Program-made: the position numbers and the translations under genes | Source: Octopus vulgaris | Taxonomy: Eukaryota | Assembly: GCA_951406725.2 (NCBI GenBank) | Contig: OX597814.1 | Location: 131,440,001-131,504,000 of the forward strand | DNA: 64,000 bases | Reading direction: 5' to 3' | In this document: piece by piece, positions 6,193 through 62,480 of the stretch | Position numbering within the stretch: the stretch's first letter is position 1 | How the letters are laid out: each line of letters opens with the position of its first letter | Notes under the pieces: generated by a model | Seen by the model: the letters and a program-made list of their open reading frames with translations, nothing else | Told to the model about the DNA's origin: nothing | Database searches by the model: none

Positions 6193-6808
6193 ATCAAACT
6201 GAATCAGCATTGAATCAGTGGCAGCAAAATGGCTGTGGCCAAATGGTTTTGTCCATACCTGAGATCACTGCAGACACAGAATAGACACAGCACATCTGTG
6301 GGTCTAAGGATGAAGTGTGTTTGAAATTCATTGTGTGTACTGAAGGGAAAGTAATGAAGTAAAACAGAGAAACTTTTGTTTCAAATATACAACAGTTGAT
6401 TGCAAGACTAGCAGCTGAAATTTTGTCACAGATAAACTATTTGATTATGGATTGCAGATAGAAGATAGAGAGCATTGACTTTTTGTGATCATCTTGGTGT
6501 GGGATGGGAGGAAGTGTTGCAAAATAACAATAAGAAACAAGAAAAAAAAGTACTGAAGGGCAGACATAAACCCCATCATTTTTGATGGGTACCACACTGG
6601 TTATATGATACATACGCTCACATTCATATATACACACGTGATGAAGAAGTTCCAAACCATGTGGTATCAGGCTCAGTTCCATTCAGCAATTCCTTGGGCA
6701 AGTGTATTCTCCTAAGACCCATGATGACCCAAAGCCTTGTGAATGAATTTAGTAGCCAGAATGTATGTGTATGTATGTGGGTACATGTGTGAATCTCTTT
6801 GCATTTAC

Positions 6809-6945
6809 CCCAAAATTGCTGAGCTACAGTAGTGATGTTGCTCTCCCAACAAATCTGCTGGTTTGTCATTTTCGAAGATTTGTAGAATAAAGAGATTCCT
6901 TATTTTGAAAAAGAAAAAGGTGTTAGCAGCAAAAGTGGCACCCAG
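6809..6945 (-). CDS. Candidate internal exon (137 nt) of the unknown minus-strand ORF
   Basis: Acceptor ctgatgtttctttttattttacag|CTG and donor GG|gtaaat; only one frame is open across the whole exon (LGATFAANT...SSAILG). Confidence 0.3.
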
Positions 6946-6989
6946 CTGTAAAATAAAAAGAAACATCAGTAATGTAGTCGTCTTACCAA

Positions 6990-8064
6990 TGCTTGAATGG
7001 AAAAACAGTGAGCGATGTTCTGCAAGGCACTGTTTTGTGATCACCACTGTGCATAATGGCCCTCTCAGGTTTGCCCTAAGCCACACAGAGAGCCACGATC
7101 ACAAGTTATGCAGATGATACAAACATCTCACAGTTGATACAGAACCCTGAAGACACTATGCACATGCAATGTGAGTTGGATGAAATATACAAGTGGGCTG
7201 AGAAGAATAGTGTGCAGTTTAATGCTGTAAAGTTTCAAGCCTTGTGCTATCAGCATGCAAAACTAAATGCAATTCTAATTAAATACACTGGACCCGGAGG
7301 GATTGCAGTCCCAAAGACACCGTCAGTGTGAGACCTTGGAATTTACATGCGTAATGATGCAGCCTTCCATGTGCATGTTGCTAAGTTGGCAATGAATGCA
7401 AGCAGCTGACCAGATGGATTCTTGGAACATTTAGAACAAGAGATCGGGAAACACGATGGCCACTTTGACTATTGCTCCCAACCAGTGTAAAATTATTTGT
7501 AGAACTTGAGGCAATTCAACGATGCTACACGAAGAAGATAGCCTCTATGCAGCATATAAACTACTGGAAAAGACTCAAGATTAAGACCATTCCTTAGAGT
7601 GCAGGCGAGTAAGATATGCCATAATATACATCTGGAAGATCCTAGAGGGACTTGTCCCAAACTTTGGTGTCAAGAGTTATGGTAATGCTAGAACAGGGTG
7701 CCGCTGCATAGTGCCAAGGACCCTGAATTTGCCATCAATATATAGGACAAGATATTGCAACAGCCTGGGCTTTAGAGGACCTCAGCTCTTCAATATCCTC
7801 CCAAAGGACCTGTCAGACCTACATGGGATGGATGTAGATGTTTTCAAAACAAAACTGGACCTCTTACTGTCAAGTGTCCCAGATGAAACTACTTCACAGC
7901 AGGAAGTGCAGATGAGGGTAGTGGCATCAAACTCCCTCATGCACCAAATGTCAATTTCTAAAAAGAATTAATGAAGTAAACTTATGTAGCATCACCAAAT
8001 GGCAGTGCTCCTGCATGGCCACAGTTCATGAGCTGAACCTAGATAAAATCTAATCAATCAAATC
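6990..8064 (+). mobile_element. CR1-clade LINE, 5'-truncated decayed ORF2 (RT C-terminus) plus 3' UTR
   Basis: QGTVL motif near 7023, SYADDT (YADD at 7107-7118), KFQAL, DLGI, IYIWKILEGLVPN, GPQLFNILP...FKTKLD; several stops and frameshifts; stop at 7969-7971; (AATC)-like tail. Confidence 0.9.
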
Positions 8065-8172
8065 ATGTATATATGTGTGTGTGTGTGTGTTATATCACAA
8101 ACTTCATGAATTTAGTAAAAGAAATAGAGCTTGTCTTGTAAGAATTATTGTTTTTTTTAAAATATTCTTCAT

Positions 8173-8568
8173 AGATGCAGGAGTGGCTGTGTGGTAAGTA
8201 GTTTGCTTACCAACCACATGGTTCTGGGTTCAGTCCCACTGCGTAGTACCTTGGGCAAGTGTCTTCTACTATTGCCTCAGGCCGACCAAAGCCTTGTGAG
8301 TGGATTTAGTAGACGGAAACTGAAAGAAGACGGTCGTATATATGTATATATATGTATGTGTATATGTTTGTGTATGTGTGTCTGTTCCCCCAACATCGCT
8401 TGACAACTGATGCTGGTGTGTTTACATCCCCGTAACTTAGCGATTCAGCAAAAGAGGCCGATAGAATAATTACTAGGCTTACAAAGAATAAGTCCTGGGG
8501 TTGATTTGCTTGACTGAAAGGTGGTGCTCTAGCATGGCCACAGTCAAATGACTGAAACAAGTAAAGAG
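8173..8568 (+). mobile_element. SINE family A, full length
   Basis: Head GCAGGAGTGGCTGTGTGG through tail CAGTCAAATGACTGAAACAAGTAAAGAG. Confidence 0.9.
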
Positions 8569-24685: not shown

Positions 24686-24693
<8 letters not shown>

Positions 24694-24795
24694 ACCGACC
24701 AGACCATCAGATGTTGCAACACATCGCTGGTCACAATGCGTTCGCATTGTTTTAGCCTTCGAATGACGCCACCCCGCTGGCTAAGCGAGCAGGCA
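24686..24795 (-). mobile_element. SINE family D tail fragment between (TA)n tracts
   Basis: Reverse complement of 58584-58690. Confidence 0.8.
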
Positions 24796-24971
24796 TATAT
24801 ATATATATATATCAGTAGTTGAATGAATTATCTTAGTATGGATAGTTCGGTTAACCGATACCTGGGTAGCAAATTCACGTCAGAAAAACACGGTTGAAGC
24901 TACATGCCGAGGGCATAGATCACGTGCTTTCGTGTGGAAATTTGTGTGTTTTTTTTTAATACAAATAAATG

Positions 24972-25127
24972 AAAGAATGGAGTTGAACGACGATTTAACA
25001 AAATTCCTTTATTCTCGACATATGTTTCGAAGGCTGCATATTCCTTCGAAATTAGGAATATGCAGCCTTCGAAACATATGTCGAGAATAAAGGAATTTTG
25101 TTAAATCGTCGTTCAACTCCATTCTTT
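24972..25127. repeat. Perfect 74-bp inverted repeat with 8-nt loop (Penelope-like terminal fold-back)
   Basis: Arms 24972-25045 and 25054-25127 are exact reverse complements; GAAACATATGTC at 25071-25082. Confidence 0.9.
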
Positions 25128-25135
25128 AATTTTTT

Positions 25136-25174
<39 letters not shown>

Positions 25175-25418
25175 GAAGAAATGAGGTACTCAGAAATCTG
25201 GATGGTTTTATATTTACAGATATTTATTAGTGTGTTACATGTTTTTATAAATCATATATCATATATATTAGCGCTTTCGTCCACTCTAGTGGAGTTTTCA
25301 AATTGAACTTTTGCAGGAATTTTGTCTCTTTTTATAGTATTATTGAATGTGAAGGGGTGGGGAGAAACATTAGATAATACAAGAGAGTGAGAAATGGAGA
25401 GAAAGTGAGAGAGAGCGC

Positions 25419-26504: not shown

Positions 26505-26995
26505 GTCTCTCACTTGTGAGAGACTTCCTGTTTGCAGACGATTGTGCGCTTGCAGCATTGAATAAACCAGACCTGCAAGAACTTGCCACTTGTCTCTCAG
26601 AAGCAGCAAAAGCCTTCCGACTGACCATTAGCCTGTGAAAAACTGAAGTGATGCTTCAGCCTGCACGTGGCCTGATACCTCCTGAGCCTCAGATTGAGAT
26701 TGAGGGCACAATTCTGAACAGCATGGAGAGCTTTACATACCTGGGAAGCTGCCTATTCTCAAACTGCAGCATGGACAAAGATGTTTCCATGAGGCTTGCA
26801 AAAGCAGGAGCTTCGTTTGGCAGACTTTGGACACGTGTGTGGGCCGAACGAGGCATCAGACTTTCCCTCAAGCTGGCAGTCTATAGGGCAGTCATCGTCA
26901 CCTCTCTGCTCTACGGATGTGGGACGTTGACGCTGTATAGGAGGCAAATGCAAGTTCTTGACCAGTTCCACCTCCGCCGCTTGCGACGAATCTAA
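26505..26995 (+). mobile_element. RTE-clade LINE RT fragment (pseudogenised)
   Basis: DFLFADDCALAA, LTISL*KTEVM, FTYLGS, KAGASFGRL, KLAVYRAVIVTSLLYGC, FHLRRLRRI. Confidence 0.92.
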
Positions 26996-28367
26996 TGAAA
27001 TAAGTACACATTTCGACGCTGCGATGATATATGAAACACGCACGCACATAGTACGGTCTCAAAGTAACATCAAAGAATTTGGACATAGCGGTCGGTCTTG
27101 AACAGATTATGCGTTGTGATTGTAATATATTAAAAAACAAAACGGAAAGGAGCGTGTAACGTGACGAGTGATGTCACCGGTACGGTTGCACTGGAATGTG
27201 ATAAAGCTTTCTTGCACTGTCGGCATACCGGCATTAGCACTGTCTTTCTCTTTGTTATTTGTGCGAGATGGTTTACGGTATAAGATGGTATTCAGTCAAA
27301 CAGCGAATGCACTGCTTTCAAGTATTACTGCATTGAGACTCTAAGATGAACCAGCCCCAGAAAATCGATCTAAAAATTGAAAAATATTACAATATACAGA
27401 AAGGCATAGCTACTATCAGCTAGCAAGACACCATATAAAATTTTCAATTTTTTCTTCTTTGTTATTTTATTTTCGTATATGTACTCACATGCACGTACGC
27501 TCGTTCGTGTATCCATGTTTGTTCATCCTGGTGATCATAGTTGCGAACGAAGAAAACGAAATGGTATAGTATATTCATGAGGAAATGATGTGATGAGAAC
27601 GAGAGAAATTACTAAAAGAACAACAGGAATTTTGAAAATAAGCCATCCAACAAATATAGGAAGTTGAAAAAATATGGTATTTTACACCAAAATACTCGAA
27701 AATCAATGGATATTAAAAGAAGAGATGTAGAATAATTTGGCCTTTTGGAATGTAATTCAGATTCAGCCATCATATCTGTAAAAAGAAAAAAAAAGAAAAA
27801 AGTGAAGTGGCTTTTGACATAAGTGTCTAAATAAGCAGAAATCCTTCAGGAACGAGGGAAAATATATTTCTTTTAATTTCTCTTGTGTCCGCAATGGTTT
27901 TGTTTTTCTCTACTTGTTTTTATTCTGAAACGAAGCAGTGTTTAACCTAAATTTTTGCACCACTTTCATTCACGAGATCCTAGCTAGAGTCAGGAAACAA
28001 ATTGAAAATCAATAAGAGCTCTGGAAATATCAACATTTTAGATTTTCGCTTGTTCTCAGTATTGTTTTAGTATAATGTAAATACTGTCCGAGAAATTCAA
28101 CAAACGAATAAATAAACAGAATGAAAATGAAATTGTTCTCATTAGTTTTATTCTAGATGTTTGGCTGGTTTCCAAATCAGCTTTAATCCACTTGAGCCTT
28201 GATACAAGGCGTTCCAGCTATGACCATTACTCTTATCATTTTTTAGGCATTACTCTTATCATTTTTTAGGTGTATTGACGACAACATTCATTATCCACCA
28301 TGTCCTTTCTTCATATAATATGGGCAGTATGCGGTACGAGGGAGATTTAGCTGCTATTTCAAACAGC

Positions 28368-28973
28368 GGATCTTTACCTTTTGACTGTCAGATTTAAAAA
28401 ATAATTTTTTGTAACTAAACACTTTCAAACTTCGGACACTGATAGAATGTGTCATATAAAACATGTTTTACTCTTAGCATTTTTGAGGAAAACTTATATT
28501 TACGAAGATATTTCACCTTAAATTTCTCGTATTTCGATAATTTCAACCAATCAATGACGTATATTCAGCTGAATAAAATTACTGCCGTTGTTAGTCAACA
28601 AGAACTTCCAGCGGTGTATATTTCGTTTGTCACTGTTATTTATCTATGACAACCATAACCTTAACCTTAAAACCAGTACAAACGCACGAACGATGTCATA
28701 ATTAACAGTGACAAACGAAAAATACACTGCTGATAAGTTGTTGTTGACAAACAACGACATTAATTTTATTCAGCTGAATACACGTCATTGATTGGTTGAA
28801 ATTACCGAAATACGACAACTTTAAGGTGAAATTACTTCGTAAATATAAGGTTTTCTCAAAAATGCTAAGAGTAAAAGATGTTTATATGACACATTGTACC
28901 AGTGTCCGAAGTTTGAAAGTGTTTTGTTACAAAACATTATTTTTTAAATCTATTGGTGAAAAGGTAAAGATCC
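28368..28973. mobile_element. Fold-back MITE with GGATCTTT termini and 8-bp TSD (Merlin-like)
   Basis: TSD CAAACAGC at 28360-28367 and 28974-28981; about 280-bp imperfect inverted arms; centre TAACCTTAACC. Confidence 0.9.
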
Positions 28974-29689
28974 CAAACAGCTCGGGTGTGAACTGTTTTG
29001 CCTTGCTTTAGAGCAGTCTTGGGCATACTGCGCCCCGCTGGGAATTTCTGAATAGTGCATGGAACGAAAAATTAACCTTGAAGTTTTTAAAAAGCTGTGC
29101 GGTCCACGTTATCGGTGAGTCATGTACAATGTGGCCTGCTTGTCGCAAAAGTTTGCTTATAGCTGTTTTAGAGCGAGGGGCTGAGAGAATCGCTAGAGCA
29201 TCTAGCTCTGCGGTTTTTGTTTTGGTTCTTTAACTTCTGAGATCAAAAATCTCGCCGAGCTCAACTTTCCCTTTCATCCGTTTGTAACTGATAAACAAAG
29301 TACCGAGTCAAGTACTGGGGTTCGATGGTATCGATTTCACTCCCACCCCACCTCAAAAAATGCTTGCCATGTCTCCTAAATCGGAATCGATTTATTATAT
29401 ACTCGCATCTGCTAAAGTTGATAAATGTTCAAAATTTGTTAACTTTTACTTTATCTATTATCCCCGTAGGATCACATAGATACAGCTTTTGAATAAAAGA
29501 ATTAAAAGATGCAAAACGTTTATTGTTATCATATACGAAAGAGTAAAAAGATTTGCACAACAGCTTGGTTTGTTACGATGGAAACAGGCACCAATATGTC
29601 TGGTTTTCGATTGCTAAAATTACTCAAAATTTGCAAACTTTGAAAGCTTTTATTTATTTATTTATTTATTTATTTATTTTGTCTTCATC

Positions 29690-41651: not shown

Positions 41652-42312
41652 TATTGGCCACTCCTTAATAACAATAATGGTAATCTTTTCTACTATAGAC
41701 ACAAGGCCTAAAATTCTGGGGAAGGGGCTAGTCGATTTCATCAACGACAGTACTCAACTGGTACTTACTTTCTCGACTCCGAAAAGATAAAAGGCAGTGT
41801 CGATCTCGACGGCATTTAAGCATAGAACATAAAGACGGACATTGACGCTGAACATGTAGCCCGACGTCCTAACGTTTCTGGTAACTCGCCACTCAGCACA
41901 ACCATTAGGTAAGAATTACATCGACTCCATTACTTGACTGGTACTTTATTTTATTGATATTGAAAGGTGGAAGGAAGACAAAGTCGACCTCGGCGGACGG
42001 AGCTGGAAGTGATGCTCTACTGATTATGAATCTACTAGCTCGCTTACAAGGGAGGAGATTTAGTTGATATTATTAACTCCTAGTACTTCATTTTGTCGAC
42101 CCCGAAAGGTAGGGTTAACTTCGACTGGATTTGAACTCAGAAGAAATACCACAAGCATTTATCCCGAAGTTCTGATGAATCTGCCAATCCATTGTTTCAG
42201 ATTTTGGCACAAGACCAGCAGTTTTGAAGAGAGGGGCTTGTCAGTTACATCGACCATATTATTTGGCTGGTATTTTATATCATCACCCCTGAAAGGATTA
42301 AAGATGTAGTTG

Positions 42313-42550
42313 GAATCTTTACTTTTTGACCGACTGATTTAAAAAATAATTTTTTGTAACTAAGCACTTTCAAACTTCGGACACTGGTAGAATGTGTCAT
42401 TTAAAACATCTTTTACTCTTAGCGTTTTTGAGAAAAGCTTATATTTATGAAGTTATTTCACGTTAAAGTTGGCCTATTTCGGTAATTTCAACCAATCAAT
42501 TACGTGTATTCAGCTGAATAAAATTACTGCCGTTGTTTGCCAACACCAAC
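42313..42550. mobile_element. Single-arm remnant of the GGATCTTT MITE
   Basis: Highly similar to the left arm of 28368-28973. Confidence 0.8.
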
Positions 42551-43689
42551 TATGAAAAGACTAGGAACAAATATTGCAAGATAGTTTTTCCAGAAGTTCT
42601 AACGATTCTACCAACTCGATCTTGACTGGATTTGAACTGAGAATACGCAGATCCAGAACAAACACTGCACGTCGTTGCTTTCCGACCCTCTAATGATTCT
42701 ACAAATAATACTGATAGGAATTTGGATCGTGGCCACAAATTTACAAATGCAGGGAGTAAGTAGTTAATTTAATCAATTCCCACACAATACTCGCACTTTA
42801 GGTTACCGAGCCTGAAGGAAGGAAATGTAAAACTTGATCCTCGTGGGATTTTAATTCAGAACGTGAAGGGACGTAAGTAAATCCTGCAAGGCAGATTGTC
42901 CGATGTTCTATCGATTTTATGCCAGTCGCCGTTTCTATGATAATAAGATAATAATTTTGATAGCGTCAAGGAAGGATGGGTTTAAATAAGTATTTTAGTG
43001 TTTCACAGATTAGATTGGGAATTAAGAGAAATACAAGATGAATTGAGATAGGAGAGAGTATATGAAACAGCCAAATTGTGTTAAATACTAAATATCAAAG
43101 TGTTGCGAATATAGTAAGTTAATTGGCACTAATTGGCAATAGATAGGTTAGGCCAGCTCAGTTTAGTAGATTATGACGAAATATGGCAAACGTTTTCGTC
43201 ACGTACTTACAGAGCAGTTAGAGATTACTCGAAACTAATACGGACGTATTTTTGTGTGTGTAATATAATGCTTCGCAATAACGGGCTTCTTGGTTCGGTC
43301 CTACAGAGTCTACTCTTCGAACTATTTTCTTCCACTATTCAGTTGAGTCGATGCAACTCTTGGATGGATGGGCGGTGACTGTGAAAGGCTGTCGGATGGA
43401 CTGTGTGTCTGTCAACCAGCTTCGTGGCGATGCCCAGCTCGATTTTACCCGAGTATTCCGTTAGGATACTAGTGTGTATAACACATTTGAATAGTTGCAT
43501 TAGTCGAACTGGGAACACTCGGTTTCGAACACGACTCGCAAGAGACATACATCACCATTACGCGCTGCAGTGATGGTTAAATGTTGAAACACCTTGAATA
43601 ATGAATGTTCCCTTTCCTTTCCGTAATCTTTTACTCGCTTTTTCCCACCTAAAAATTGTTTGGTGATCTTTGAATTTGTTACATATTTC

Positions 43690-44119
43690 GAATCTTTTCG
43701 GTTTGAACGGCAGTTTGTAACATAATTTCTAGGTAACTAAAAAATTTTAAACTTCGTATACTGATAGAATGTGTTTATAAAACATCATTTTCTCTTGACT
43801 TTATTGAGAAAATTCTATAGTTTGTAACATTTTTCATCTAAAATTTCTTGCATTTCGGCAATTTTAACCAATTGCTGACCGTCCATTGAGGTGAAAGCAT
43901 TCTGTGCGTCATCAATATGTTCCTCGTTTAAGAAACATTGGGTTTATTTACATTTGTGAAGAAAAAAAAGATACCCTTCCCCCACCCTAACTAACCCTAA
44001 ATCTAAAATAGATTGAAATGCAAAAGATGATACGAGGGTTATAATTATGGGTGAAAATTTCATACGACACCGCTAGGGAAAATGGGAGTTTTTCGTAGCG
44101 GTGTCAAATGAAAAGATCC
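43690..44119. mobile_element. GGATCTTT-type MITE with 8-bp TSD
   Basis: TSD CATATTTC at 43682-43689 and 44120-44127; termini GAATCTTTTC/GAAAAGATCC; internal CCCTAACTAACCCTAA. Confidence 0.85.
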
Positions 44120-44562
44120 CATATTTCTGCAGAATAATCTTCAAAAATTAGGCTGTTCAGCAAAAAGTCTGTGATAACATTTACATATTCGTTTCGCTTA
44201 CATGAGATACCCAAGTCTATTTTTGTATTTTCCCCGATGGTTTTGATTTTTTTTATCAATCCCAATGAAATATGTACTCAGAGATCAAAAATCGCTAGTT
44301 GTCTTCAGAATTACGCTTTAAAAATTTATGGCGCTGACATGGCTCTGTGGTAAGAAACTGACACCCTAACCGCCTGGGCTTGGGTTCAGTCTTATTGTGT
44401 GGCACACTGGACGAGTGTTTTCTACTATAAGCCCGAGGCCGACCAAAGGTTTGTGTATTGATTTGTTAGATGGAGTCACTGGACTGTGACCATGCTGGGG
44501 TACCGCCTTGATGGGTTTTAGTCGAGTAAGTCGATCCCTGTATCTATTTTTAAAGCCCGGTG

Positions 44563-45084
44563 GGACTTTGACCGGCAAATTTTAAAAATAATTTCTTTGT
44601 AACTAAACACTTTTAAACTTCGTATACTGGTAGAATGTGTTACATACGATTTCATCTCAATCGAAGGAGAGGAGCTTTCTCCGTCCGGGTTGCGGATCCG
44701 TGGAACAAGCTGCCAGACGAGATGGTGAAGATGCCGACGACCGCTTTGTTCAAAGCCTCCCTGGACCTCAAGTGGCCTGAACTCTTTACATGAACACCAC
44801 CCTGTACTTAACTCCATGTCCCCCTACATGGCCTTGCTATTTGCTTTTGAGCCAAATTAACTAACTAACTAACTAACTAACTAACATAAAACGTCATTGA
44901 TTGGTTGAAATTGCCGAAATGCAAGAAATTTAACAACAAAGAGCTTACAAACTACAGAATTTTCTCAAGAAAGCCAAGAGAAAAAGATGTTTTATGTAAC
45001 TCATTCTACTAGTATAAGAAGTTTAAAAGTGTTTAGTTACAAAGAAATTATTTTAAAAATCTGCCGGTCAAAGTGAAAAGATCC
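44563..45084. mobile_element. GGATCTTT-type MITE with 8-bp TSD
   Basis: TSD GCCCGGTG at 44555-44562 and 45085-45092; inverted arms. Confidence 0.88.
44647..44883 (+). mobile_element. Young CR1 LINE 3' fragment with (AACT)n tail
   Basis: Uninterrupted RFHLNRRRGAFSVRVADPWNKLPDEMVKMPTTALFKASLDLKWPELFT* (TGA at 44791-44793); ACATA flanks both sides. Confidence 0.85.
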
Positions 45085-46435
45085 GCCCGGTGCTCTCTTT
45101 TGCCGGACCGCTAAGTTATGGGACGTATACAAATCGATATTGGTTATCAAACGGTGTGTGCACCAACACACACACACACAAATTCAGTTTCCGACTACCA
45201 AATCCACTCACAAGGTTTTGGTCAGCCCACGTCTGTAGTACAAGACATTTGCCCAAAATGCTACGCAGTGGGACTGAACTCAAGACCACATGGATCGGAA
45301 GCAAGCTTCTTCGAGGAAATTACAGATTTTGAGCGCACTACACAATTTACAACTCTCAAGATAAGATATATCGCAGCAGGGATAGCCGTGACTAAAGCGC
45401 TTTTAACCATAAGGGCTACATCAGAGTCGGAATGCTTTTGATCATCTGGTGTATCAGGACAGATCTGGGGATAAGCAAACAAACAACTTTTTAACTACCG
45501 TGTATACTGGTGATCATTAACGTCACCGAAGTTGTATGGAACCCAACGACGTCAGTCAATATTTGTCAGTTGTCAGACCTGCAATGAGCTCTCTAGCTCT
45601 GTGAGATATATTACGTATATATTATTCTAGTAACATTTTAATTCTATCTATCTATCTATTCTTTAATAAACAGAATGATTTTACCGAAAATTTATTTCTT
45701 CAGTAGTCCGATAATAAAGCTATCGCGTGTTTATTTGGAACTGCCAAGATGGCAAAGTGGTAGGAACATATGTTGATTCTAAGAGCAGGTGAAAGGAACT
45801 AGATAAACAAATGTAAATTGCTTATATGTGTACGTGTGTAAATTGGCGATACACACACGCACACAAACACACACATAGAGCCAGAACAGCAGAGGGTGAA
45901 AGAAGTAAGCGACAGGTTCTACCCTCTTCTTATCTCGCGAAAGTAAATAATGATATTAATATTAGTAAAAAAGGTAAAAGGTGGAATAACAGAACTGCTA
46001 ATTAGGGTTGGCCTATGGCAACAAATATTTCTACGAAAAGAGAAACTACAAGAAGTCTGGCAAATAGATTGGAAAGATATGAAAAGTTAAAAAAATCAAA
46101 AAATCAGTGAGTTTGTCTGGAAATTCTTAAAACTTACACACACACGAAAGTAACTTCTGGTCTAACAGTGGAGACACCAACTCAAGGAACGCATGTTCAT
46201 ATGTACGTGTTATATATATATTATACACACACGCACACACATGCTGATTTCAAAGAGTGAGAATGAGTGCTCAACACTACATTGATGGATAAATATTCTT
46301 TGTTTGTGCCTTAATAAGGCTACCAGTGGATTCATGTAAAAAGATCTTCACAATTGTTCATGCGTGTCACAATGCAAATGCTGGTACTCGCCTCCATTTG
46401 GGATTTTTGGATGTGTATGAGGGGGTGCGTATGTA

Positions 46436-56104: not shown

Positions 56105-56703
56105 ACATGTCTGTCTGTCTGTCCGCGTGTGTATTGTTTTTATGTCTTTATAATAGAAATAATTTAATATTAAATGGAGGAGGTAGATTTTTTGCCTTTC
56201 ATCCTTTCAGGTGTCGATGACTTAAGTACCAGTTGCGAACTGGGGTCGATCTAATCGACTGCTCTCCCTGCCCCCCAAAATTTCGCGCCTTGTGCCCAAA
56301 GCAGAGAAGAATATTAAACGGAGGAATTTACTCTACCTCTTTGTAGGAGTACATATACTTTACTTCCGAGAACAGGGGGGGGTCACAGTGACTTCGAAAG
56401 TTTCGGCCTGTTAGCTTTCGTATATACACGCACACTGCACTTAAAATGCTTTGCTTCACAACCATTTTGTTTCGTAGTTGGTTTCACTGCGTGACATCTT
56501 GGGTAATTGTCTTCGATTATAATCATCGATTAACCAATTACTTGTGAGGTGGATTTAGTAGGCGGAAATTGCACTGAAACCCATCGTGCACGTGTATGTG
56601 GATCCACGTGGTTTTTCTCATTAGTTACGTTTTGCATGGCCTCTCTAGCCATCACATCACTACCTTTCTACCCGACCACCTCCTGCTCTGTTTATTTTCT
56701 CCC

Positions 56704-56843
56704 AGCTTGCTTATGAACCATACGGTTCCGGGTTCAGTCCCATTGCGTGTCACCTTGGGCAAATGTCTTCTACTCTATCCTCGGAGCCGACCAAAGCTTT
56801 GTGAGTGAATTTGGTAGACAGAAACTGAAAGAAGCCCGTCGTA

Positions 56844-56900
<57 letters not shown>

Positions 56901-57121
56901 GTACATATATATATGTGTGTGTGTATGTTTGTCTGTGCTTGTCCCCCAATATCACTTGACAACCTATGCTGGTGTGTTTGCGTCCCCGTAACCTAGCGGT
57001 TCGGCAAAAGAGACCGATAGAATATGTACTTGGCTTACAAAGTATAAGCCCTGAGGTCGATTTGCTCGACTAAAGGTGGTGCTCCAGCATGGCCACGGTC
57101 AAATGACTGAAAAGAGTAAAA
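56704..57121 (+). mobile_element. SINE family A
   Basis: Body, microsatellite and tail; inverted older copies follow at about 57675-58030 and 58160-58360. Confidence 0.9.
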
Positions 57122-58390
57122 GAAGACCTATGAGATTTGCTTCCTGTTTCATCAGTATCACCCATCATACACTCCTTGATCTCCACCTCCACTCTTGTTT
57201 TCCCTCTCACGCACATACACACACCTCATAAGTGTAATCCCTGCACTCACTCCCTCACTCAAACAAATGCACACTCGCTTCTACGTTCTATTATTTCTGT
57301 CACTATTCTTTCGGTACATGTTTGACATGAGCCAAGCAGCTGAAAATCGCTTACTTTCGCCTACTTTTTCTTGTGGTTTTTAACCACCTTGCTTTCTTCT
57401 CCAAAACCATCTACGTACCTTCTCTTCCCTCTTCCTCTCTACATATAATTTTATTTCTTCTATTCCATCCATATATTTTGACAAATGACCAATTATCCGA
57501 AACCTCCATATCTCTTCTTTTCCTTCACATTGTCTTTCATCCTGGCATTCATCGTATTTTTCCTCTATATTTCAGTGTGTGTGTGTGTACTTTCTATAGA
57601 GTTTGATTACTTTTGTTTTGTGATTTATGCTAGAAACAAATGTTTACCAGTTTGGCGGGTATTTTCTTTAGTGTTTGCTTCAGTCATTGAACTGCGCCCT
57701 CGGAACGTTTAATCGAACAAATTCCAGTCCCAGTAAATATTTTAAAGTCTGGTACTTACTTACTCTATCGCTCTCTTTTTGCCGAACCGCTACTAATGAA
57801 GACATAAGCAAAACCAAAACCAATTGTGAAGGTTTTTTTTTTTTTTTAGATAGAGCGCAAACACAGACACAGAGACACACATAGATATATATTTATACTA
57901 GCTTCCACACCGTTTTCGTCTATCAGATTAACTCTCACAGGACATTGGTCGAACCAGAGCTAGACTTGAAGACATTTGCCCACTGTGTGGCGCTGACCCT
58001 GAAACCACGTAGATGCAATGGGAACTTTTTAACCTCAAGTCAGCATTGATAGCACAAATCTCTGTTTCAAGACATTCGGTCTGTCATCGCACCTTCTTTA
58101 CAAACAGTATATGTATGGTAAACCCAATTATGTCATTTTATCTAAGGTGGTTATCTCTTATCTTTTAATTCTTTCAGTCATTACAATGTGGCCATGCTGG
58201 GGCACTGCCCTGAAGAACTTTTAGTCGGACGACTCGACTTCATTACTTATTTATATTTTTAAAACCTGGTACTTATTCTATCGGTCTCTCTTGCCGAACC
58301 GCTATGTTACAAGGACTTAAACACCAGCACCGGTTGTTAAGCGGTGGTGGAGGAAAACACACACACGCATGTATGTGTGTATGTGTATGT

Positions 58391-58682
58391 GGAGGCGCAA
58401 TGGCCCAGTGGTTAGGGCAGCAGACTCGCGGTCGTAGGATCGCGATTTCGATTCCCAGACCGGGCGTTGTGAGTGTTTATTGAGCGAAAACACCTAAAAA
58501 GCTCCACGAGGCTCCGGCAGGGGGTGGTGGCAATCCCTTATTGTACTCTTTCGCCTCAATTTCTCTTACTCTTTCTTCTCTTGGCCTGCTCGCTTAGCCA
58601 GCGGGGTGGCGTCATTTGAAGGCTAAAACAATGCGAAGCGCATTGTGACCAGAGATGTGTAACATCTGATAGCTTGGTCGGT

Positions 58683-58690
<8 letters not shown>
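58391..58690 (+). mobile_element. SINE family D, tail type 2, ending in (AT)n
   Basis: GGAGGCGCAATGGCCCAGTGG head and TTTCGATTCC B box; tail ...GGTCGGTCACGTGAT. Confidence 0.8.
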
Positions 58691-58742
<52 letters not shown>

Positions 58743-58934
58743 TGTTATGCGGTTCAGCCCTAAGGCTGTGGCCAACTTGGGGCACCTCCAGTGTAATCAC
58801 CCTTCCATTAGCCAATTCTATGTGATAGGCTTTTGGTGACGGAGTGAGTTCGACACTGCTGCCCTATTTTGAGTTTCCTGCCTAGATATTGGTTCATTTG
58901 GGATCGTAGAGCAAGTGGTCAAATGAGTGTGTAT

Positions 58935-58999
<65 letters not shown>

Positions 59000-59015
59000 A
59001 TATATATGTATGTAT

Positions 59016-59635
59016 ATAAATGGAGTTAAACGCAGTTGTTATTCAAATCTTTTTACTTCCGACATATTTTCAAAGAAAACATTGTTATTAAGGAATAAAA
59101 TTGTTTTAAAACAATGCAATCTTCTCATCAGGGAAAGAAAGACACCAAACACATCAATAAGACATTTTAACAGAATGTAATGATTGCGTATATGATGAAG
59201 GGAGCGCTAGCAAAATTTTTAAAAAAAGAACGTTAGTAGATATAACGTCAAAGGTAATTTTATAGAAAGAGAAGGAGAAAGAAAGAAATTAGCAGAAAAC
59301 TAATAGTGGAGAATAAAGGTTCAAGACATGGAAGTAGATATATTTAGTGGAAGTGAAATGTAAGAAGACAGTCAAAGGTCAAATTTTATAAATGGCAGAA
59401 ATTAATTATAGGAATTAAATGTGTGTTTTAGCCTAGCGTTCCCTTCATCATATACACAGTCATCACATTCTGTTAAAAATGTTTTACTGATGTGTTTGGT
59501 TTCTTTCTTTCCCTGATGAGAAGATTGCATTGTTTTACACCATTTTATTCCTTCTGGAATAATAACAATGTTTTGTTTGAAACATGTGTCGGATGTAAAA
59601 AGATTTGAATAACACCTGCGTTTAACTCCATTTAT
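59016..59635. mobile_element. Penelope-like fold-back element (about 200-bp arms, 220-bp spacer)
   Basis: 59016-59210 pairs with 59433-59635; abuts (CA)n/(TA)n; a hammerhead motif lies in each arm. Confidence 0.75.
59507..59595 (+). ncRNA. Type I hammerhead ribozyme motif
   Basis: TCC-CTGATGA (59513-59519), long stem II, GAAA (59579-59582), C ATGT G TC, then GGA; predicted cleavage after C59590. Confidence 0.65.
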
Positions 59636-59804
59636 TTATTTCTCTATATCATAAAAAAACATTTCACCTAAACCTGGAGTTTCTGCCTTTATAAGTAGGC
59701 TGTTACATCCTTGGTACTTGTGTGAATTTTTGCTATCCTGGTAGCCATTTGTTTATTTTTTTTTCGTGTTATTTGTAAACATTGGAAAAACACATACATA
59801 CATG

Positions 59805-59849
<45 letters not shown>

Positions 59850-59851
59850 TT

Positions 59852-59913
<62 letters not shown>

Positions 59914-60231
59914 GTGTGTGTGTATATATATATATATACATATATGTATATATGTACGTATATATGTGTGTATATATGTATGTGTATATATATGTATGTA
60001 TCTATCTATCTATCAAGATTAATCAGCCGAAATTGCGACGATGATCCGGTTCTTGACTGAAGATTAGAGGCTTAGAATGACCCGTCAGTTTTTTGTGTCG
60101 TCTATTTGAGTGTTTTGCGTTCTTGTCCCATTTTGTATTTTTATATATATTTTTTATACATACATATATATATATATATATACATACATATATACATATG
60201 TATCTATGCGTGTGTGTGTATATACACACAC

Positions 60232-60277
<46 letters not shown>

Positions 60278-60328
60278 CTGTGTCTGTGTGTGCATGTATA
60301 TATGTGTTGTGTATGTATATATACACAC

Positions 60329-60377
<49 letters not shown>

Positions 60378-61535
60378 TGTGTGTTTATGTGTAGGTTGTC
60401 AATCGTCTCGATTATCTCAGATCTCAACAGATTTTCAGATTATAGATACAAAAGAAGTATGCGTATGTGTCTTATCACACATGCGCACGCGCGCGCTCAC
60501 TATGGGCTCCAGAGCAAATTTGTTTACCAAATTTCACTCATATAATATTGGCCGACCGACCCCAAGGCCTTATAATAAAAGGAAGCTGAGACCCCGTTTT
60601 ACACTGGGATAATTTTGTATATACATATACAGGCACACATCTCTGAATTCTTTATTCGTGCACACACACACACTCACACAAACCACCACCACCGTCATCA
60701 TCATCATCATCATCATCATCATCACCATAGTATGATTTTTACTTTTGCCGCATTGTATTTTCTTTTTTGTTTTTTTTTTCCCCTAGCATATATAAATCGT
60801 TCGCAATTTCCCATCGCCTTTGCTGCTACTACTTTTATAATAATCTGTACTGCCGTAGGGGTCCTGTTTGTCGAAAGGAACTTTCTGTACTACTATAGTG
60901 CATGTAGCTCCCTTCTATTCCCATCTGACACACACACACACACACACATTGAAAGCTTGCTCTCACGTAGAAACACGTACGCGCGGAGTATGACCTACTT
61001 CCGGATAGATGCACTTGTTTTGCATTCTTTATTTATTCCCCCGCCATCCCGGACGGGACAGATGAAGAGATAGGATGATAAATAGACAGAGAAATGTAGG
61101 TAGTGAAAAAGGGAAATAAAATAGATTGATGAGATAGGCAGGCTTTTGGTGGTTGTGGACCGACAGGGAGAATGAAGTACATGGAGATTAATTAGCAGGA
61201 CAACGCATAGATAGATAGGTATCAAGATAATGCTAATACAGAGAGGTGGATTGCTAGATATCTGGATGGATATATGTCGATCAATAGATTTAGAGATAGA
61301 TGGATATGTGTGGAGATTCGCAAAATGATGTTTAAGTTAAATACAAAAAGATTTAATCGATGAATATGTACAGATAAATTGTATAAAGCGAGATCTATCT
61401 ATCTGTCTATGCCTGCATGCAATTTATATGTGTGTTTGTTTCTCTCTATATATACATGTGTGTGTGTGTGTGTGTGTGTAACCTGCATATGTGTGTATTT
61501 AAATCTATCAATTTTCCCTTACTTAATAATCTTTA

Positions 61536-61536
<1 letters not shown>

Positions 61537-61617
<81 letters not shown>

Positions 61618-61701
61618 ATCTATCTAATTTATCTATTTATCTATCTTTCTATCTATATTTCTATCTATCAATCTATCTTTTTATCTTTCTTTCTATCTAT
61701 C

Positions 61702-61745
<44 letters not shown>
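61537..61745. repeat. (TATC)n microsatellite, degenerate at the 3' end
   Basis: Seen directly. Confidence 0.9.
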
Positions 61746-62179
61746 ATCTCAATCTTGTGTTACGTGTGTGTACACACACACTCTCTCTGTCTCTGTCTCT
61801 CTCTCTCTCACACACACACACACATATTCATGACCAGAAAGAGAGGAGGCAAAGTGTGTGCATGTGTGTCAAAGGGAGATGAGAACATGGAGCTTTAGGG
61901 CTTGAAAACTCGTTCTGTTTGCATATATTTCCGAACTTCCTCTTTCTTTTTGTTTTTCCTTTCCATCTCTCCCATCATCCTGGCATTCCCCCCACCCCCT
62001 TCGTTTGTTTGTTTATGTGTTATACCCATCACTTTTCTTCGTTAAAATTTCCGCTCAGTCACATACATATCGGCCGCAAGCCAAATTTCTCTCTCACACA
62101 CACACACACACTCTCCATCGTTCTCTGTCTTTCTTTCTCTCTCTCTGATGCTCGCACACACACACTTTTTTCTTCATTT

Positions 62180-62233
<54 letters not shown>

Positions 62234-62480
62234 AGTCACTCACACTCTCACACACACATGCACATAAAATCTTTCTGCGTTTTTCTCATGGATATCTTAT
62301 GGCCTGTAAAGAAAGATACACACACATTTTCCTCCCTCTGTAGTATTTCCTCTCTTTAAAGCATTCTCTTCCTTACACGCATTTTCTCCCTTCTACCTCC
62401 AACGTCTCTCTTCTTCTTCTCCATTCCTTTTTTTCTGAACCTTTTTCTTCTGGTCTGCCTGTCTGTCTTATCCTTGGTTC

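What the first reader, a model, noticed from the sequence alone, without database searches (positions are those of the whole stretch)
59016..59635. Microsatellite-anchored fold-back element with a hammerhead ribozyme in each arm
Seen: about 200-bp inverted arms. The right arm has a full hammerhead core (CUGAUGA, GAAA, GUC, palindromic stem III ACAUGU, stem I UCC/GGA) and an unusually long stem II region of about 59 nt (GCATTGTT/AACAATGT plus an inner TTATTCC/GGAATAA hairpin). The left arm carries the mirror motif on the minus strand (TCATCAG at 59125-59131) with one base lost in stem III. Known: Penelope-like elements carry minimal type I hammerheads with palindromic stem III in their pseudo-LTRs, often form inverted termini, and such motifs can cleave as dimers. 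Inference: this is a non-autonomous, ribozyme-bearing Penelope or retrozyme-like family, and a transcript from either strand would contain a ribozyme plus its antisense.
Basis: partly seen in the sequence, partly recalled or inferred. Interest (0 to 1): 0.8.

Follow-up and report, generated by a model that had tools for sequence, protein, structure and literature searches.

The report
Inverted Penelope-like retroelement ends with hammerheads
This is two decayed back-to-back copies of a high-copy repeat, likely the end of a Penelope-like jumping gene, each carrying a hammerhead self-cutting RNA motif with an unusually long side arm; the layout is ordinary for these elements, and only the long arm looks new.

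Summary
The arms are real (185 of 199 aligned columns identical), as is the right-arm type I hammerhead (1 match; 0 of 200 shuffled windows). The left arm lacks C15.2 and 7 nt of stem II. The repeat is high-copy, roughly thousands of copies in three runs. Its majority letters restore three stem pairs that this copy breaks, so the hammerhead fold is a family trait. It is not a fold-back family. The 'spacer' is the upstream part of the left copy, this junction is nearly private, and other copies join elsewhere. Most copies end at about 59640 in (TA)n; about 1 in 8-9 carry a tail, here on one arm only. A related palindrome at 24813-25137 repeats the pattern. This is the published layout of Penelope-like insertions: 5'-truncated, inverted partner, one-sided tail, microsatellite target. 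No RT or GIY-YIG was found, so clade and autonomy are open. A read-through RNA is predicted to bury the ribozyme in a hairpin. The new feature is a 59-nt stem II, against at most 23 nt in 44 published rows. Cleavage is untested.

The parts
58937..59015 (.). (AC)n array followed by an AT-rich microsatellite; left boundary and likely target
59016..59431 (-). Left copy: 5'-truncated 3' end of the element, about 415 nt, 3' end facing the microsatellite, no tail. The 5' limit is approximate.
   Evidence: pieces 59131-59312, 59111-59284, 59119-59304, 59107-59311 and X6 record 26
59056..59136 (-). Left hammerhead: core 59131-59125, 53-nt stem II region, GAAA 59071-59068, C15.2 missing, site C 59061; likely inactive
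59216..59431 (-).
   Evidence: depth and loose ends at 59313 and 59390; no Pfam domain
59427..59433 (.). Inversion junction between the 5' ends of the two copies; nearly private to this locus
   Evidence: bin 59406-59431 holds 2-9 single-contig depths against about 6700-8300 at the 3' end
59427..59640 (+). Right copy up to the family's main 3' end
   Evidence: depth falls 8.3-9.4 fold after 59639
59510..59593 (+). Right type I hammerhead: complete core; stem I cut to 3 bp, G10.1-U wobble and a G-G mismatch in stem II in this copy; predicted cut after 59590
59520..59578 (+). 59-nt stem II region: outer helix, middle helix, inner 7-bp hairpin
   Evidence: majority letters and loose ends
59641..59787 (+). 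One-sided tail of about 147 nt, family sequence carried by a minority of copies
   Evidence: pieces reaching 59761, 59779, 59780; weak homology to 24813-24956 (10 of 1000 shuffles)
59794..60013 (.). (TA)-rich microsatellite; right boundary
24813..25137 (.). Related subfamily, separate insertion: near-perfect palindrome of two copies truncated at stem II, a tail of about 145 nt on the left arm only, (TA)n on both sides
   Evidence: (core homology: 0 of 1000 shuffles reach the score)

Best explanation
This is likely one old insertion of a Penelope-like retroelement: two 5'-truncated copies of the element's hammerhead-bearing end lie back to back between microsatellites. Shown: the arms, the motif, the high copy number, the variable junction, the shared 3' end, the one-sided tail and the (TA)n flanks. 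Inferred: a Penelope-type endonuclease/RT cut both strands of an AT-rich microsatellite and primed two cDNAs on the same kind of RNA, one from the main internal start (about 59640) and one about 145 nt further 3' (the tail). Both stopped early and were joined at their 5' ends. In the parent, the type I hammerhead would cut after GUC as a dimer through the CAUAUG-type palindrome when copies lie in tandem. At this locus it is likely dead: the left copy lacks C15.2, the right has weakened stems, and read-through RNA is predicted to form a 200-bp hairpin. Whether the parent encodes its own RT is open (about 60:40 in favour, judgement).
For:: 3766, 3612, 2560 and 323 contigs laid from 4 of 4 runs. 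Majority letters restore stem pairs: 59578 C (81-91%, G10.1-C11.1), 59575 C (95-97%), 59594 A (96-99%). Both arms share minority letters at 59565, 59578, 59601 and 59602, as expected from one template. Other same-strand junctions occur in other copies (59064>59513, 59225>59437, 59175>59617, 59172>59484, 59177>59529, 59168>59533). Loose ends at 59641 are (TA)-like in X1 and X3. All 4 outer ends of the two window insertions lie within 10 nt of TA-containing arrays, which cover 7.4% of the window. Literature: PMC8557442 passages describe 5' truncation, an adjacent inverted truncated copy, a tail at one end and (TA)n bias; PMC4209133 reports paired minimal hammerheads 100-700 bp apart on opposite strands; PMC11167929 shows both-strand cleavage of AT-rich DNA and two internal RT starts that define the tail.
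Against: No RT or GIY-YIG domain in six frames of 59016-59790, 56500-59000 or 60000-62400; the one RT hit lies about 1.4 kb beyond the 25-kb relative and looks like an unrelated LINE (family by recall). The tail is about 145 nt, not the published 30-40 bp. The extra base after A9 of the published consensus is absent. Only 40 of 154 variant rows and 15 of 140 joints were shown, so core invariance and absence of tandem joints are not established. Depth is not a copy number, and depth steps can partly reflect this copy's divergence. No cleavage or transcription is shown.
Confidence: 0.82

Rival explanations
1. It is a non-LTR retrozyme: a short tandem-repeat unit that is cut to monomers, circularised and reinserted, with this locus a rearranged pair of monomers.
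For: Type I hammerhead, no ORF, high copy number. The one-pair stem III with palindromic tetraloop resembles axolotl HHR_Amex1 (PMC7229834 passages). Retrozymes are reported to derive from pLTRs and to leave monomers (10.64898/2026.07.22.740005).
Against: No tandem unit in the window. The main 3' end runs into (TA)n, not into the unit's start. None of the 15 joints shown goes back head-to-tail (125 not shown). The family spans at least 560 nt, above the 150-450 bp typical repeat.
Confidence: 0.08
2. It is a fold-back or MITE-type DNA element whose terminal inverted repeats happen to hold a hammerhead.
For: Two 200-bp inverted arms round a non-coding middle; a second palindrome with related arms at 25 kb.
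Against: The middle is a colinear part of one arm's element; the junction bin has about a thousandth of the depth at the 3' end or less; junctions vary among copies; one arm has a tail.
Confidence: 0.04
3. The motif is a chance or long-dead resemblance in an AT-rich repeat and never cleaved.
For: No Rfam hit; folding z only -1.4 and -1.6; the hammerhead fold holds about 1e-5 of the right arm's ensemble and 5% of the left's.
Against: Majority letters repair three stem pairs. The 30%-diverged relative keeps GAAAC-AUAU-GUC and closes a short hairpin GAAGG/CCUUC against GAAGA/UCUUC, a two-sided change. The pattern's one metagenome hit also has an unrequested 7-bp stem I.
Confidence: 0.04

Closest known systems
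Penelope-like element pLTR hammerheads (Cervera and de la Pena 2014, PMC4209133)
   Same: Type I topology, U-rich upstream, short stem I, G10.1-C11.1 in the family majority, palindromic 15.2-16.2, mostly solitary truncated copies, opposite-strand pairs 100-700 bp apart.
   Different: Stem II region 59 nt against at most 23 nt in the 44 rows read in supplement part 2; no extra base after A9, as in the Marsupenaeus and one Saccoglossus row.
Insertion structure of EN+ PLEs, with (TA)n bias in Naiad and microsatellite bias in Neptune (Craig et al. 2021, PMC8557442)
   Same: 5' truncation, adjacent inverted truncated copy, tail on one side, microsatellite target.
   Different: Tail about 145 nt against 30-40 bp; no ORF seen; Naiads lack canonical hammerheads (8 have half cores 35-50 nt apart); the family's stem III motif searches found no match in that paper's supplement.
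PAc, Poseidon of Anolis (Frangieh et al. 2024, PMC11167929)
   Same: Two 3' ends downstream of the hammerhead; AT-rich target; an ATG within the stem II region.
   Different: PAc has an intact ORF; here the ATG frame stops after 14 codons; PAc's main RT start is not homologous to the target, whereas here TA-rich letters follow the main end in the family.
Non-LTR retrozymes (Cervera and de la Pena 2020, PMC7229834)
   Same: Non-coding repeat with type I hammerhead; weak palindromic stem III.
   Different: No tandem array seen; inverted and truncated layout; loop I-loop II contacts not examined.

Membership tests
Type I hammerhead ribozyme | Core CUGANGA ... GAAA ... UH in type I order | tested here: met
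   Right arm complete; left arm lacks only C15.2
Type I hammerhead ribozyme | Three helices round the core, kept among copies | tested here: met
   Majority letters restore stem I and II pairs; two-sided change against the 25-kb relative; pairs read by hand; 114 variant rows unseen
Type I hammerhead ribozyme | Match to an Rfam hammerhead model | tested here: not met
   Rfam also misses the well-formed motif in L001, so this test is insensitive for such variants
Type I hammerhead ribozyme | Self-cleavage after C17 | not testable with these tools
   Needs an in vitro assay or raw RNA reads
Penelope-like element (EN+) | ORF with PLE RT and GIY-YIG endonuclease | tested here: inconclusive
Penelope-like element (EN+) | Hammerhead near the 3' end of copies | tested here: met
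   Cut site 50 nt upstream of the main 3' end
Penelope-like element (EN+) | Variable 5' truncation with an adjacent inverted truncated copy | tested here: met
   This locus, the 25-kb locus and at least six other junctions
Penelope-like element (EN+) | Tail at one end only (30-40 bp in print) | tested here: met
   One-sided in 2 of 2 window insertions, but about 145 nt long
Penelope-like element (EN+) | Partial tandem forming pLTR-ORF-pLTR | not testable with these tools
   Needs an assembly
Naiad clade | N-terminal GIY-YIG, no canonical hammerhead, (TA)n target | tested here: inconclusive
   (TA)n fits; no ORF; stem III motif terms absent from the Naiad supplement (line breaks could hide a match)
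Non-LTR retrozyme | Head-to-tail tandem units of 150-450 bp each with a hammerhead | tested here: not met
   No such array in the window; none among 15 of 140 joints shown
MITE / fold-back DNA element | Fixed two-arm unit shared among copies | tested here: not met
   Private junction, colinear spacer, variable joints

The most novel reading that the evidence does not exclude
An abundant Penelope-like family carries a working hammerhead whose loop II has grown into a 59-nt multi-helix domain that Rfam and short-spacer descriptors cannot see. If general, PLE hammerheads are undercounted and the 'half cores' of supposedly ribozyme-less Naiads may be full ribozymes, with the inserted domain serving as a protein-binding or activating module.
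Probability: 0.15. Interest if true: 0.6.

Novelty: new variant of a known kind. Interest (0 to 1): 0.3.

Why it matters
The fold-back itself is routine retroelement debris. The useful part is a natural pair: two related subfamilies share the stem II closing helix and the stem III palindrome, but one appears to have a 19-nt stem II and the other 59 nt in thousands of copies. That allows a direct test of whether a large loop II insertion is tolerated, or replaces the loop-loop contact or protein help that weak PLE hammerheads are thought to need. It also shows a class of hammerhead that descriptor searches with 7-17 nt spacers would miss. The role of hammerheads in PLEs is still open in the papers read.

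Tried and rejected
Whole genome: none held. Rfam: no hammerhead at the locus, at the 25-kb relative or in L001. Pfam on 26 translations: no PLE domain. Pattern scans: viral contigs 0 and 0; metagenomes 0 and 1. That hit, L001, is a separate type I motif with the same stem III and no evident RT frame; it gives no link to a PLE ORF. Expression: no RNA holder listed; run X6 is only guessed to be RNA, so its 323 contigs, one of them 169 nt with a single difference, are not used as evidence. Earlier scan notes: nothing in 3 look-ups. Host: a protein search with a LINE fragment gave no names; 'octopus-like' rests on recall of the SINEs and is not shown. The inverted-repeat family at 28, 42 and 43-45 kb was checked as a possible third hammerhead family and rejected: no CUGANGA core. 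Lunse et al. (PMC5785218) is not held; its content is known to me only through a review passage. The Octopus vulgaris repeat paper's supplement has no motif match but is only 5,371 characters. One supplement file of PMC4209133 could not be searched and bioRxiv supplements are closed; these may hold longer stem II examples. The fold of a majority-letter ribozyme was not computed, only read by hand.

Full report
Observation. The window is AT-rich (2-kb bins 33-44% GC), full of microsatellites (82 tandem rows) and interspersed repeats, as in an animal genome. Octopus is my recall from the SINEs and comes from no call. The arms are 59016-59215 (minus) and 59427-59640 (plus): 185 of 199 aligned columns identical, JC 0.074, with one 7-nt and four 1-nt gaps. 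The right arm has UCC, CUGAUGA (59513-59519), 59 nt, GAAA (59579-59582), CAUGUG, UC and GGA; the cut would fall after 59590. The left arm has the same motif without C15.2 and without 7 nt of the inner hairpin. A descriptor found 1 hit in the window and none in 200 shuffled windows; it was written after seeing the motif. Rfam gave no hammerhead among 92 and 10 matches, but it also missed a well-formed motif in L001.

It is a large family. No genome was held. Twenty of 24 listed runs from 5 coded organisms hold part of the stretch. Contigs of 4 runs were laid at 80% likeness: 3766, 3612, 2560 and 323 records. Summed depth at 59614-59639 is about 6700, 8300 and 6900 times the median of 8 listed single records in X1-X3. 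The tool warns that this is no copy number; I read it only as 'thousands'.

The hammerhead fold is a family trait. Where this copy's right arm breaks a pair next to the core, the majority letter restores it: 59578 C in 81-91% of depth (G10.1-C11.1), 59575 C in 95-97%, 59594 A in 96-99%. Loose-end consensuses keep the inner hairpin and suggest a 6-bp outer helix (read by hand). One change goes the other way: 59565 is C in 88-96%, which removes one pair of the middle helix seen in this copy. Both arms carry the minority letter at 59565, 59578, 59601 and 59602, so they likely came from one template. Of the 14 arm differences, 8 appear in the shown rows, 4 private to each arm, as expected from even decay after insertion.

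It is not a fold-back family. Contigs run colinearly from the left arm into the 'spacer' (59131-59312, 59111-59284, 59119-59304, 59107-59311), and X6 record 26 reads spacer, arm, hammerhead and tail in one sense. The left copy is thus about 415 nt long and the inversion point is at about 59427-59433. That bin holds 2-9 single-record depths. Other copies join at other points (59064>59513, 59225>59437, 59175>59617, 59172>59484, 59177>59529, 59168>59533; 15 of 140 joints and 12 of 29 between-letter rows shown). Loose ends at 59390 show that the family goes on upstream (53, 46, 48 and 8 contigs); how far is unknown. Depth falls 8.3-9.4 fold after 59639, where loose ends are (TA)-like, and 5-10 fold more after 59743; pieces reach 59780. 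So most copies end at about 59640 and a minority carry a tail. Part of these steps could come from this copy's divergence.

A second insertion repeats the pattern. At 24957-25137 lies a near-perfect palindrome whose arms match the 3' half of the hammerhead and the main end (0 of 1000 shuffles reach the score). Both copies are truncated just 5' of or inside stem II, so no CUGAUGA remains. The left arm holds a GAAGG/CCUUC hairpin with a 9-nt loop, likely a short stem II, with a two-sided change against GAAGA/UCUUC. Only the left arm has a tail, 24813-24956, weakly like 59641-59787 (10 of 1000 shuffles). All 4 outer ends lie within 10 nt of TA-containing arrays that cover 7.4% of the window; these are 2 independent events.

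Mechanism. PMC8557442 (passages; supplement searched by terms) describes strong 5' truncation, an inverted 5'-truncated copy next to the 5' end, a 30-40 bp tail often at one end, and microsatellite bias. PMC11167929 (main text read) shows a purified PLE protein cutting and extending both strands of AT-rich DNA and starting RT at two internal sites that bound the tail; its hammerhead cleaved only with protein and was not needed for insertion in vitro. PMC4209133 (parts 1-2 of 4 and supplement part 2 of 3) reports weak dimer cleavage and opposite-strand pairs 100-700 bp apart. I infer two cDNAs primed from opposite strands at the two starts, truncated and joined head to head. The ribozyme at this locus is likely dead. 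The hammerhead fold holds about 1e-5 of the right arm's ensemble and 5% of the left's, the left lacks C15.2, and in a read-through RNA of either strand the core is paired and stem I probability is 0.0. A transcript would more likely be a long hairpin than a ribozyme switch. Expression was not shown.

Against and open. No RT or GIY-YIG in 24 six-frame translations round both loci; one weak RT hit at about 26.5 kb is likely an unrelated LINE. Clade and autonomy are therefore untested, and I file this as 'works like, and probably derives from, a PLE', not as a member of a named clade. The tail is about four times the published length. Retrozyme and MITE readings fail their defining tests as far as they could be run.

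Novelty. The layout is known. The 59-nt stem II region exceeds the 23-nt maximum in the 44 PLE-type rows read and the 7-17 nt spacer used in PMC8557442, whose 8 'half cores' span 35-50 nt. Eight literature searches, judged by listing plus the papers named, showed no description of this family or of so long a PLE stem II. PMC3088659 (passages) notes variable stems but showed no such case in the passages returned. PMC7229834, PMC6765202 and PMC13282606 were seen as passages; 10.64898/2026.07.22.740005 as part 1 of 5 plus passages. Lunse et al. was not available, and Repbase and Dfam were not searchable, so the family may already be catalogued. Verdict: new variant of a known kind, interest 0.3.

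Noticed in passing
window 59568-59612 (+) and about 25061-25105 (+): Both subfamilies have an ATG in the 3' strand of stem II opening a frame of exactly 14 codons before a stop. In PAc the ORF starts at stem II. Could be the element's ORF start with an intron or early stop, or chance from shared descent.
   Followed up: partly
window 25172-25310 (-): A decayed short hammerhead-like motif (6-bp hairpin, GAAA GCGC UA, degenerate core 23 nt upstream) ending at the same (TA)n as the 25-kb palindrome; likely a third PLE family in the same microsatellite.
   Followed up: partly
window 58584-58688 and 24688-24794: Two 94%-alike copies of another short repeat ending directly in (TA)n, each close to one of the two hammerhead insertions.
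   Followed up: no
window 28366-28976, 42310-42551, 43689-45086, 44565-44646: A separate family with long inverted arms of about 200-240 bp and no hammerhead core; likely a DNA-transposon derivative.
   Followed up: partly
window 59636-59652: Majority letters at 59642 and 59644 make the family sequence TA-rich just after the main 3' end. This may allow pairing with a (TA)n target, or may reflect copies that end here and run into their targets.
   Followed up: no
L001 732-787 (+): Metagenome contig with a type I hammerhead-like motif: 7-bp stem I, the same CAUAUG stem III and an extra hairpin between the core and stem II; no Rfam hit.
   Followed up: partly
window 26530-26995 and 7585-7971: LINE reverse transcriptase remnants (Pfam RVT_1 E 0.00029 below cut-off for the first; 5 unnamed homologues for the second).
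   Followed up: no
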